This document shows positions 12,306-13,450 of a DNA stretch of 64,000 bases, piece by piece. Source of the stretch: Candidatus Bathyarchaeia archaeon. GTDB taxonomy: Archaea > Thermoproteota > Bathyarchaeia > Bathyarchaeales > Bathycorpusculaceae. A model generated the notes under the pieces. The model ran no database searches, was not told the DNA's origin, and saw only the letters and a list, made by a program, of their open reading frames with translations. Numbering within the stretch: the stretch's first letter is position 1; each line of letters opens with the position of its first letter. The position numbers were made by a program, and so were the translations under genes. The DNA is taken from assembly GCA_038883655.1 (NCBI GenBank), contig JAVZLQ010000002.1, forward strand, positions 217,625 to 281,624, written 5' to 3'.

Positions 12306-13427
12306 ATGTTCTTTCACGTGATACTAACAAACGAGTGCACTCTTCAATGTAGGTATTGCTTTGGCGAGGCTTTTGAGGATTTTGAGGAAAGTTTTTCAGG
12401 TTTTAATGTTGACTACTCTTTGCCTAAAAGAATAGCGTATAACATTGGGATTTTGGACGATTTTTGTAAGAAGGACTTGGATTGTGTTTTAATTTTTTAT
12501 GGTGGCGAGCCTCTTTTGTGCGTTGATGATATCAAGCGAATAATGGACAGCGTGCATGCTAAGCATTTTCTAATTCAGACTAATGGTTTGCTCTTGGACC
12601 GTTTGGAGCCAGAGTACGTTAATCGTTTGCACACGATTCTCGTTTCTGTCGATGGTGACGAAGCGTTAACAGATTTTTATAGAGGAGCTGGCACTTTTAG
12701 GCGCATAATCGAAAATCTGCGGTTTGTTAGGCGGAATGGTTTTGGCGGCGAAATCATTGCGCGCATGACCGTCATGGAGCAAACCGACATTTATAAGCAG
12801 GTTAAGTGGCTTGTTGAGAACAGCGAGTTTCCATTTTCTTCTATACATTGGCAGTTAAACGCTGGATTCTGGAGCGACTTTGAAAGAAGAGATTTTAAGC
12901 GTTGGGTTGAGCAAAGCTATAATCCTGGAATACGTAGGCTTGTCCGCTTCTGGGTTGATTATATGGAGCGGTTTGGCGTTGTTTTAAGGCTTTACCCCCT
13001 TCTTGGAATTGCACAATCCATGCTAAATGGTGAGACGCAAAGTCTATTACGTTGCGGTGGCGGATGGATAAACTACGCAATTCAAACAGACGGACATATC
13101 ATTCCTTGTCCCACAATGTGGGGAATGAAAGACTATTATTTGGGGCACATAAGCAACATAGACCCTCTAAGTTTGCGTAAGCTTTTCGTCGGCGAACCAT
13201 GCACAAAATGCGAAATCTACGGTTTATGCGGCGGAAGATGCCTCTATGCAAACATAACGAAACGTTGGAAAGAAGACTCCTACAAAGAGGTTTGCAAGAC
13301 TGTTCGAAACTTGATGGACGCAGTTTCAATGGAAATCCCAAGAATAAATAGTCTAATAAGGAATGGGCGGGTAAAACTTGAAGATTTCGATTTCATGAAA
13401 TACAACGGATGTGAAATAATCCCATAA
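12306..13427 (+). CDS. Radical SAM/SPASM protein (resembles TIGR04084/AF0577 family)
   Basis: CTLQCRYC, FYGGEPLL, QTNG; C-terminal CGGG..G.IIPC..CTKCEIYGLCGGRC..C. Confidence 0.85.
   Translation: MFFHVILTNECTLQCRYCFGEAFEDFEESFSGFNVDYSLPKRIAYNIGILDDFCKKDLDCVLIFYGGEPLLCVDDIKRIMDSVHAKHFLIQTNGLLLDRLEPEYVNRLHTILVSVDGDEALTDFYRGAGTFRRIIENLRFVRRNGFGGEIIARMTVMEQTDIYKQVKWLVENSEFPFSSIHWQLNAGFWSDFERRDFKRWVEQSYNPGIRRLVRFWVDYMERFGVVLRLYPLLGIAQSMLNGETQSLLRCGGGWINYAIQTDGHIIPCPTMWGMKDYYLGHISNIDPLSLRKLFVGEPCTKCEIYGLCGGRCLYANITKRWKEDSYKEVCKTVRNLMDAVSMEIPRINSLIRNGRVKLEDFDFMKYNGCEIIP
13407..13427 (+). repeat. attL-like direct repeat GGATGTGAAATAATCCCATAA
   Basis: 19/21 identical to 21348-21368 with 14-bp exact core; last 7 codons of the radical SAM gene. 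Confidence 0.85.
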
Positions 13428-13450
13428 ATTTTTATTGCATCCATTATACG

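What the first reader, a model, noticed from the sequence alone, without database searches (positions are those of the whole stretch)
13407..13435. Integration into a protein-coding 3' end with a synonymously recoded replacement
Seen: left GGA TGT GAA ATA ATC CCA TAA and right (21348) GGA TGT GAA ATA ATT CCA TGA both encode GCEIIP-stop. They differ only at a synonymous Ile position and the stop codon, and both continue into TTTTTAT. Established: archaeal tyrosine integrases usually target tRNA genes. Inference: the element carries a selected copy of the radical SAM C-terminus and terminator, so the host gene stays intact and its terminal residues matter.
Basis: partly seen in the sequence, partly recalled or inferred. 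Interest (0 to 1): 0.75.

Follow-up and report, generated by a model that had tools for sequence, protein, structure and literature searches.

The report
Mobile element inserted in gene's end
A 7.9-kb mobile element sits inside the last codons of a conserved radical SAM gene of a hot-spring Bathyarchaeia archaeon and supplies a silent replacement for the gene's end; a well-proven example of a known kind of event.

Summary
Window 13407-13435 and 21348-21376 are a 29-nt direct repeat (26/29 identical; 0 of 100 shuffles give a second copy). The left copy is the in-frame end of a TIGR04084 radical SAM/SPASM gene. The right copy is a displaced 7-codon relic.

Between them lie 7941 bp. They carry a tyrosine integrase beside the left repeat, a replication-helicase-like protein, a membrane-anchored protein, an HTH protein and a second recombinase.

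The predicted empty site exists. Contigs from three other hot-spring runs join 13406 directly to 21348 with 0-1 mismatches. That site carries the right-hand version (ATT CCA TGA G). Strand exchange therefore fell inside the 14 identical bases 13407-13420. The ATC CCA TAA A now ending the gene comes from the element.

Related integrases sit against the same gene end in other Bathyarchaeia, and they form one clade. Sister integrases target tRNA 3' ends and share the same arm motif and spacing.

Integration into 3' ends of archaeal protein genes, with an element-supplied stop codon, is already published for Thaumarchaeota. So this is a new member of a known kind. That the copy is "selected" is only weakly shown, and no excised circle was seen.

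The parts
12306..13427 (+). Target gene: a radical SAM/SPASM protein of 373 aa ending NGCEIIP.
   Evidence: TIGR04084 at 312.9 bits (cut-off 225), covering the profile 1-347 of 347; Pfam Radical_SAM. Homologues were found in 35 of 41 related genomes.
13407..13435 (+). attL: the left copy of the 29-nt repeat, holding the last 6 codons, the stop and ATTTTTAT.
   Evidence: A Logan contig of X1 spans it (13187-14342, 0 differences).
13407..13420 (+). The 14 bases identical in both copies; strand exchange must lie here. It contains the heptamer GTGAAAT (13411-13417) between GGAT and ATCC.
   Evidence: The empty-site joint 13406>21348 has 'both = 14' and carries the right-hand variants. The dyad and heptamer were read.
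13421..13450 (+). Element-derived end of the gene (C of ATC, CCA, TAA), the T-run, and a conserved spacer (TGCATCCATTATA at 13436-13448) up to the integrase stop.
   Evidence: Differs from the empty site at 13421, 13426 and 13428. The spacer motif is found with at most 3 mismatches, 7-8 nt after the stop, in 13 of 29 junctions; the random rate is 28 of 5000.
13451..14587 (-). int1: a tyrosine integrase of 378 aa with an N-terminal Cys4 zinc ribbon; the ORF is intact.
   Evidence: PF00589 at 2.1e-25. R207, H292, R295, H318 and Y327 are invariant in alignment A1. Falls in a clade with the other integrases that sit beside this gene.
14681..16237 (-). p518: a probable replication NTPase/helicase of the element.
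   Evidence: No Pfam, NCBIfam or PHROG hit. At least 1953 homologues, mostly from Bathyarchaeia; 3 of the best 120 are longer forms carrying Prim-Pol/PriCT domains. Homologues lie next to related integrases in L051, L117, L125, L154, L159, L160, L168 and L180.
16486..17043 (+). p185: unknown function, part of the cargo.
   Evidence: No family hit. A 55% identical piece occurs in L126.
17100..18866 (-). p588: a protein that by eye has a signal peptide and C-terminal membrane helices, with an N-terminal beta-sandwich-like (DNRLRE/CBM96-like) domain. Variable cargo.
   Evidence: NF033679 at 3.6e-6, below its cut-off. Atlas leads only. Contig depth is about 0 across 17014-19017 in X2-X4, and low from 16513, while the flanking modules are present.
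19232..19825 (-). p197: a helix-turn-helix protein.
   Evidence: Weak HTH hits. A 68% identical copy lies at G000 C5:9433-9999.
20037..20885 (-). int2: a second tyrosine recombinase (282 aa, Xer-like); role unknown.
   Evidence: PF00589 at 5.7e-20. NF040815 at 101.7 bits, below the 220 cut-off. Similar genes lie near the right ends of other elements of this genome.
20913..21278 (-). Small ORFs of the right-end module (56 and 52 aa).
   Evidence: ORF list. 85% identical to G000 C5:10918-11297. No family hit.
21324..21338 (+). Conserved arm motif GCGGGAGAAATCTCC (a small hairpin), 9 nt before attR.
   Evidence: Exact copies lie at G000 C3:1768 and C2:299528. There are 7 further near copies with a similar upstream A/G-rich context in other loci (L104, L127, L150, L028, L039, L053, and less clearly L138). 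In 3 sites it is followed by a tRNA 3' half at the same spacing.
21348..21376 (+). attR: the right copy of the repeat. It holds the host's original last codons (ATT CCA TGA), now displaced and non-coding.
   Evidence: Identical to the empty-site contigs over 21348-21469 (0 differences in 3 of 3 contigs).

Best explanation
A 7941-bp integrative element of a hot-spring Bathyarchaeia archaeon has recombined into the last 21 coding bases of a TIGR04084 radical SAM/SPASM gene. It is plasmid- or virus-like, with an integrase, a replication-helicase-like protein, variable cargo and a second recombinase.

The probable agent is its tyrosine integrase int1, acting by attP x attB exchange. Strand exchange fell within the 14 bases GGATGTGAAATAAT (13407-13420). 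Everything to the right of that point in the present gene is element DNA: the third base of Ile372, Pro373, the TAA stop and the T-run. It encodes the same protein. The host's own end (ATT CCA TGA G...) was pushed 7.9 kb away, to 21348-21376.

**Shown:** the repeat, the empty site, which copy is the host's, the intact integrase, and the recurrence of this integrase clade at the same gene end.

**Inferred:**
- that int1, rather than int2, does the exchange;
- that the heptamer GTGAAAT between GGAT and ATCC is the overlap region, imitating a tRNA T-arm;
- that the T-run terminates transcription;
- that the element is still mobile.
For: - **The repeat:** 26/29 identical, with 0 of 100 shuffles reaching two matches. 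No such repeat lies downstream of the gene in 19 other loci.
- **The empty site:** the joint 13406>21348 (skips 7941, 14 bases shared) occurs in one contig each of X2, X3 and X4. These contigs lie on 13126/13183/13071-13406 and on 21348-21469 with 1+0, 0+0 and 1+0 differences. A k-mer assembly cannot jump across a 14-nt identity, so the joint is in the reads.
- **Assembly support:** X1, the probable source, has contigs spanning attL and attR.
- **The integrase:** int1 scores 2.1e-25 against PF00589, and its catalytic residues are invariant in A1. Its stop lies 23 nt after the gene's stop.
- **Recurrence in genomes:** the same convergent gene-integrase junction occurs in G006:C38, in G013:C85 (integrase interrupted), in G007 (91-aa remnant) and in L065 (53-aa remnant).
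- **Recurrence in metagenomes:** it occurs in 7 of 80 metagenome loci by tblastn, plus L113 by eye.
- **One clade:** all 8 integrases included from such junctions fall in one 11-row clade with SH-aLRT 99.
- **Shared arm motif:** the motif at 21324-21338 recurs at the right ends of tRNA-targeting elements. There it is followed by a copy of the tRNA 3' half, with the T-loop heptamer starting 13 nt after the motif. GTGAAAT holds the same position in the window, in 4 of 4 sites read.
- **A conserved target:** the core lies on one of the most conserved stretches of the gene, ranking 4 of 1099 21-nt windows across 17 genes.
Against: - No excised circle (attP) was seen for this element. None appears among the joints listed, where 17 joints were not shown, and two pattern scans of viral contigs found nothing.
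- The evidence for the empty site is contigs, not raw reads, and comes from one other study (P2, three samples).
- No other locus with this gene-integrase junction showed a right-hand repeat in the flank available (L113 5 kb, L114 6 kb, L122 10 kb, G006:C38 5 kb). The att pair therefore rests on this one element.
- Three same-genus genomes do not join the two flanks.
- A second joint (13434>21442 with 28 other letters between; X2 and X4; short side 28 and 23 nt) suggests a strain whose unoccupied site carries the left-hand version. That blurs the line between 'element-derived' and 'host allele'.
- Which of the two recombinases acts, and where exactly the DNA is cut, was not tested.
Confidence: 0.9

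Rival explanations
1. Integration happened just downstream of the gene (crossover in TTTTTAT). The coding sequence was never exchanged, and the right-hand GCEIIP copy is an element-borne arm that merely resembles the gene.
For: TTTTTAT is a second block of identity. The weaker joint 13434>21442 in X2 and X4 looks like an unoccupied site with the left-hand version of the core.
Against: The three well-anchored empty-site contigs carry the right-hand variants at all three differing positions, with 0 differences over 21348-21469. The weak joint has a different spacer (28 letters in place of about 65) and short sides, so it comes from another strain.
Confidence: 0.05
2. attP and attB were identical over all 29 nt. 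The three differences are mutations that accumulated in the left copy after integration and were kept silent by selection on the gene.
For: All changes inside the coding part are silent.
Against: The occupied and empty strains differ at 0-1 positions in about 350-460 nt of flank. Three changes within 8 nt are therefore far above the background. The left-hand version (ATC CC., TAA or TAG, then T-run and TGCATCC) is shared with junctions of related elements in other hosts.
Confidence: 0.03
3. The repeat is a coincidence. The region is an island acquired, or left by rearrangement, without site-specific recombination at these points.
For: Same-genus genomes are rearranged at exactly this flank and do not show the junction.
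Against: The shuffle control, the control in relatives, an exact 7941-nt skip at the repeat in three runs, and the conserved arm motif with the same spacing as in tRNA-targeting elements.
Confidence: 0.01

Closest known systems
[quoted passage not shown] NitEve-E2 of Nitrososphaera evergladensis (Krupovic et al. 2019, PMC6563490; passages read)
   Same: A tyrosine-recombinase element is flanked by short direct repeats and inserted in the 3' end of a protein gene. The element replaces the last bases, including the stop, with its own sequence and an alternative stop. The case was proven by comparison with an empty site. In that survey 14 of 68 elements used such targets.
   Different: There the att site is 13 bp and 8 nt are replaced by non-homologous sequence. 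Here a 29-nt look-alike (26/29) replaces the end silently. The host class (Bathyarchaeia), the target gene (TIGR04084 radical SAM) and the zinc-ribbon integrase clade all differ. The supplementary tables of that paper could not be opened, so I cannot exclude a radical SAM target among its 14.
tRNA-gene-targeting integrative elements of archaea and bacteria (review PMC8371274; passages read)
   Same: The element carries a copy of the target's 3' part, so the target is restored. The proposed overlap is a heptamer between short inverted repeats, like a tRNA loop and stem. The integrase gene lies next to attL. Sister integrases of the same family in this very genome use tRNA-Cys.
   Different: The target is a protein-coding end, so restoration has to keep a reading frame and a stop codon. 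The dyad is weaker: 4 bp flanking 8 nt.
Phage 21 / e14 integration into the icd gene of E. coli (recalled from memory; no paper opened)
   Same: A prophage inserts in the 3' part of a protein gene and brings a substitute 3' end that keeps the gene functional.
   Different: It is bacterial, and the substitute segment is much longer and not fully silent. This comparison rests on recall only.
SSV1-type archaeal integrases (review PMC8371274)
   Same: An archaeal tyrosine recombinase of a small integrative replicon.
   Different: SSV-type integrase genes contain attP and are split by integration, and they carry KxxR. Here the integrase ORF is intact in the integrated state, the core lies 23 nt outside it, and the motif is HTFR.

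Membership tests
Site-specific integrative element using a tyrosine recombinase | Encodes a tyrosine recombinase with the catalytic R, H-x-x-R, H/W and Y residues. | tested here: met
   int1 scores 2.1e-25 against PF00589. R207, H292, R295, H318 and Y327 are invariant in A1. The assignment of these residues to catalytic roles is recalled.
Site-specific integrative element using a tyrosine recombinase | Direct repeats (attL/attR) flank the element, and the integrase lies next to one of them. | tested here: met
   A 29-nt repeat, 26/29 identical. The integrase stop lies 23 nt from the gene's stop.
Site-specific integrative element using a tyrosine recombinase | An unoccupied site in a close relative joins the two flanks exactly at the repeat. 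| tested here: met
   The joint 13406>21348 in X2, X3 and X4, with 0-1 differences.
Site-specific integrative element using a tyrosine recombinase | An excised circular form carrying attP. | tested here: inconclusive
   Not among the joints listed (17 joints not shown; these are contigs, not reads). Scans of viral contigs found nothing. Related contigs L127 and L155 do show an attP-like order of arm motif, core and integrase.
Elements that integrate into the 3' end of a protein-coding gene and restore it | The crossover lies inside the coding sequence, and the element supplies the remaining codons and a stop. | tested here: met
   The empty site carries ATT CCA TGA and the occupied gene ATC CCA TAA. 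The only shared stretch to the left of these differences is 13407-13420, which is coding.
SSV1-type integrases | attP lies inside the integrase gene, so the gene is split on integration; R...KxxR...Y. | tested here: not met
   The 378-aa ORF is intact in the integrated state and the motif is HTFR. The definition is from PMC8371274.
pNOB8-type integrases | The R...YxxR...Y signature. | tested here: not met
   int1 has H at that position (HTFRHW). The definition is from PMC8371274.
Archaeal XerA (NF040815) | A score above the curated cut-off of 220 bits. | tested here: not met
   int1 scores 113.4 and int2 101.7 bits. No match in the genome is above the cut-off.
TIGR04084 radical SAM/SPASM family (the target gene) | A score above the cut-off over the whole profile. 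| tested here: met
   312.9 bits against a cut-off of 225, covering the profile 1-347 of 347.

The most novel reading that the evidence does not exclude
The end of this radical SAM gene may act as a tRNA T-arm look-alike: GGAT-GTGAAATA-ATCC, with its heptamer at the same distance from a conserved arm hairpin as the T-loop is in sister elements. That resemblance could have let one lineage of tRNA-type integrases jump to a protein gene once. The lineage would then have spread through many Bathyarchaeia genera using this gene as a safe harbour.

Decayed insertions would have left element-derived stop codons and flanks fixed as the working gene end in several species. They would also have made the gene's 3' flank a breakpoint for chromosome rearrangement.
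Probability: 0.3. Interest if true: 0.55.

Novelty: new member of a known kind. Interest (0 to 1): 0.4.

Why it matters
It gives a cleanly bounded integrative element for Bathyarchaeia, an uncultured and abundant archaeal class. Occupied and empty sites come from near-identical strains, and the crossover is narrowed to 14 bases.

It also defines an integrase clade whose natural target is a conserved protein-coding end, next to sisters that use tRNA genes. That makes it a useful natural series for asking how tyrosine integrases change targets.

For genome annotation, it shows that the last codons and stop of a conserved gene can be of mobile-element origin.

The principle itself is already published, so the gain is a well-documented example and a family, not a new mechanism.

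Tried and rejected
- **Empty site in relatives.** I looked in 18 related genomes. No locus carries the window's downstream genes within about 18 kb of the gene.
- **Same-genus genomes.** In G001-G003 the block starting near 21426 lies next to other DNA. The gene's 3' flank there joins the homologue of G000 C2:99188. This says nothing against integration, because near-identical strains do have the junction.
- **Right-hand repeats in other loci.** I looked in other loci with the gene-integrase junction and found none.
- **Viral contigs.** Related integrases there are only distant (23-40% identity). Scans with p588, p518 and two att-junction patterns found nothing.
- **Family searches.** PHROG, Pfam and NCBIfam gave no family for p518, p185 or p588. 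The Atlas leads (PF27228, CBM96) are leads only.
- **Rfam.** A scan of 21200-22300 gave only a chance-level hit.
- **Target classification.** A crude script classified targets for 82 integrase loci and left 48 unclassified: 15 tRNA, 15 convergent ORF ends, 4 too short. I do not use these figures as frequencies.
- **Stop-codon association.** An association between stop-codon type and occupied sites was considered and dropped as too noisy.
- **Literature.** I found no paper describing this element, this integrase clade or this target in four searches or in the passages read. Supplementary tables could not be opened and may list further targets.

Full report
**The observation**

They differ at three positions:
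- 13421, C against T (ATC/ATT, both Ile);
- 13426, A against G (TAA/TGA, both stops);

The left copy is the in-frame end of the ORF 12306-13427. The right copy is not part of any listed ORF of 50 aa or more in that frame.

Chance is excluded. With up to 3 mismatches only these two sites match in 64 kb, and 0 of 100 shuffles reach two matches. Applying the same test (up to 6 mismatches) downstream of the homologous gene in 19 other loci gives no second copy anywhere.

**The genes**

The target is a full-length TIGR04084 radical SAM/SPASM protein (312.9 bits against a cut-off of 225, whole profile). Between the repeats lie:
- int1 (13451-14587, minus strand), a PF00589 tyrosine recombinase with an N-terminal Cys4 zinc ribbon;
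- p518, with no family hit but at least 1953 homologues, nearly all from Bathyarchaeia. Three of the best 120 are longer forms carrying Prim-Pol/PriCT domains. I therefore read it as the NTPase/helicase part of a replication protein, which is an inference;
- p185, of unknown function;
- p588, which by eye has a signal peptide and membrane helices, plus weak DNRLRE/CBM96-like leads;
- an HTH protein;
- int2, a second, Xer-like recombinase below the XerA cut-off;
- two small ORFs.

Record titles of related loci place the organism in Bathyarchaeia. The runs that hold the sequence are hot-spring metagenomes.

**The decisive test**

Species-level relatives could not show it. None of the 18 relatives has the window's downstream genes near the gene. 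In the three same-genus genomes the chromosome is rearranged at this flank.

Laying Logan contigs of four runs on 10000-25000 settled it.
- One contig each in X2, X3 and X4 joins 13406 to 21348, skipping 7941 nt with 14 bases fitting either side. All three runs belong to one study, different from the probable source run X1.
- These contigs lie on 13126/13183/13071-13406 and on 21348-21469 with 1+0, 0+0 and 1+0 differences.
- The shared identity is only 14 nt, so an assembler cannot create this joint from the occupied form.
- X1 has contigs spanning both junctions of the occupied form and no such joint. Contigs can miss rare forms.

**What follows from the empty site**

The empty site carries the right-hand version at all three variable positions. 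The right copy is therefore the host's original gene end, displaced by 7.9 kb. The left copy's C, TAA and A come from the element, and exchange took place within 13407-13420. The element thus replaces at least the last 7 bases of the gene and its downstream T-run, and at most the last 21 bases, without changing the protein.

Post-integration drift is unlikely as the source of the differences. There are three differences within 8 nt against 0-1 in about 350-460 nt of flank.

**A second, weaker joint**

A second joint (13434>21442, with 28 other letters between; X2 and X4; short sides of 28 and 23 nt) looks like another strain. Its unoccupied site appears to carry the left-hand version with a shorter spacer. 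If real, both versions circulate as host alleles. The element's copy may then be taken from host diversity rather than separately recoded. I treat this as weak.

**Is the copy 'selected'?**

GCEIIP is invariant in 19 of 19 relatives' genes and in 17 of 17 aligned full-length genes (two rows were dropped, one truncated and one partial). One metagenome-derived junction has GCEVIP (L065). The last 21 coding bases rank 4th of 1099 windows for nucleotide conservation (0.841 against a mean of 0.676).

By my own arithmetic, 14 of the 63 possible single-base changes in these seven codons are silent. Two silent changes out of two therefore have a chance of about 0.05. The tail matters to the host. That the element's copy is under its own selection is plausible but only weakly shown.

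A relative shows that the family does not always conserve the tail. In L053 a 17-nt exact repeat 3.6 kb apart flanks a decayed element. The target gene, which looks like an acetyltransferase by eye, now ends FLPEDCTF, where the displaced copy reads SINT. L051 has the same new tail.

**A family habit**

Integrases related to int1 sit convergently against the same gene end in several places:
- G006:C38, with an intact 405-aa integrase;
- G013:C85, where the integrase is interrupted by another ORF;
- G007, with a 91-aa remnant;
- L065, with a 53-aa remnant;
- 7 of 80 metagenome loci by tblastn, plus L113 by eye. L122 and L124 share one junction sequence.

The spacer motif TGCATCCATTATA follows the stop at offset 7-8, with at most 3 mismatches, in 13 of 29 junction rows. 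By comparison, 28 of 5000 random 45-nt windows contain it anywhere. Four of these rows (G001, G002, G003a, G011) have no integrase left by tblastn. I read them as fossils in which an element-supplied end has become the permanent gene end. That is an inference.

I built a quick tree of 73 integrases: 71 loci with a full-length uninterrupted match, plus the window and G006:C38. Partial or interrupted matches were left out. All 8 rows from such junctions fall in one 11-row clade (SH-aLRT 99), together with L121 (another protein target), L117 and L155. The 12 rows labelled tRNA lie in the other clade.

**How it may work**

A 15-nt hairpin motif (21324-21338) lies 9 nt before the right repeat. Exact copies occur at two other places in this genome, and there are 7 near copies with a similar upstream context in other loci.
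- At G000 C3:1768 the motif is followed by a copy of the 3' half of tRNA-Cys. The intact tRNA-Cys lies next to an int1-like gene at the start of contig C4.
- At C2:299528 and in L127 it is followed by another tRNA 3' half.
- In these three sites the T-loop heptamer starts 13 nt after the motif. In the window GTGAAAT holds that position, flanked by GGAT and ATCC.

The review of archaeal tyrosine recombinases describes the classical picture of a 7-bp overlap between inverted half-sites that matches tRNA loops and stems (PMC8371274). My reading is that this gene end is used as a T-arm look-alike. This is inference from four sites, and no cleavage was mapped.

**Comparison with what is known**

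Integration into the 3'-distal parts of protein genes is published for archaea.
- In Thaumarchaeota 14 of 68 elements do so.
- NitEve-E2 replaces 8 nt, including the stop, with its own sequence and a new stop, and this was verified against an empty site (PMC6563490).
- The review lists further cases.
- The icd case of E. coli is the bacterial classic, which I recall rather than read.
- int1 is not SSV-type, since its ORF is not split and it has HxxR. It is not pNOB8-type, since it has no YxxR. It is not XerA, since it scores below the cut-off.
- Papers on Bathyarchaeia viruses mention integrases but not this element or target in the passages I read.

**Verdict**

The case is ordinary in principle but unusually well documented. 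It opens a clade of integrases with a protein-coding target.

- Confidence in the integration model: 0.9
- Interest: 0.4

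Noticed in passing
window 21440-21510: About 70 nt (from TTGCCGTCCGAG to CATCATCCGGCAA) is conserved in all three same-genus genomes, with two copies in G003. Contig depth at 21470 in the hot-spring runs is 1600-2800, so many community members carry it. There is no Rfam match and only one copy in this genome. It could be a small RNA or a regulatory element upstream of the Sso10a-like gene at 21906-22202.
   Followed up: partly
G000 C4:1-640 and C3:1-1815: A second element of the same genome. An intact tRNA-Cys lies next to an int1-like gene at the start of contig C4. 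At C3:1768 the arm motif is followed by a 22-nt copy of the tRNA-Cys 3' end. The element seems to be split across two contig ends.
   Followed up: partly
G000 C2:120470-122041 and C2:299528: A third int1-like gene (42% identical, possibly interrupted) lies beside a tRNA-like sequence that ARAGORN did not call, perhaps because of an intron. A matching arm motif plus tRNA 3' half lies 179 kb away on the other strand, near the contig end. Whether this is an inversion or two separate elements is not resolved.
   Followed up: no
G000 C3:181-930, C2:300331-301044, C5:10377-10889; window 20037-20885: Each element of this genome seems to carry a second, Xer-like recombinase near its right end, in addition to the int1-type gene at the left end. 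No recombinase in the genome reaches the XerA cut-off; the MAG is 93% complete.
   Followed up: partly
window 13428 flank compared with G001:C46, G003:C4 and G000 C2:99188: In two same-genus genomes the radical SAM gene is followed by the homologue of G000 C2:99188 and downward, after 0.14 or 2 kb that begins with a decayed spacer motif. In G000 that breakpoint lies beside two tRNA genes. Integration targets thus coincide with synteny breakpoints.
   Followed up: partly
L053:7108-10729 and L051: A related, decayed element in another Bathyarchaeia genome is flanked by an exact 17-nt repeat. It changes the target protein's tail from SINT to FLPEDCTF. A second genome (L051) has the same new tail.
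   Followed up: partly
L127:1680-1754 and L155: Two short metagenome contigs show arm motif, core and integrase in the order expected of an unintegrated (attP) or tandem form of related elements.
   Followed up: no
window 16513-19017: The middle of the element (p185, p588) has almost no contig depth in runs X2-X4. The integrase/p518 and p197/int2 parts are covered there by contigs at least 90% alike, as if the cargo were swapped between otherwise related elements.
   Followed up: no
L044 (G013:C85) 304-2104: The integrase next to the radical SAM gene end is cut short (191 aa) and followed by a 354-aa ORF that looks like a transposase. The family was not tested.
   Followed up: no
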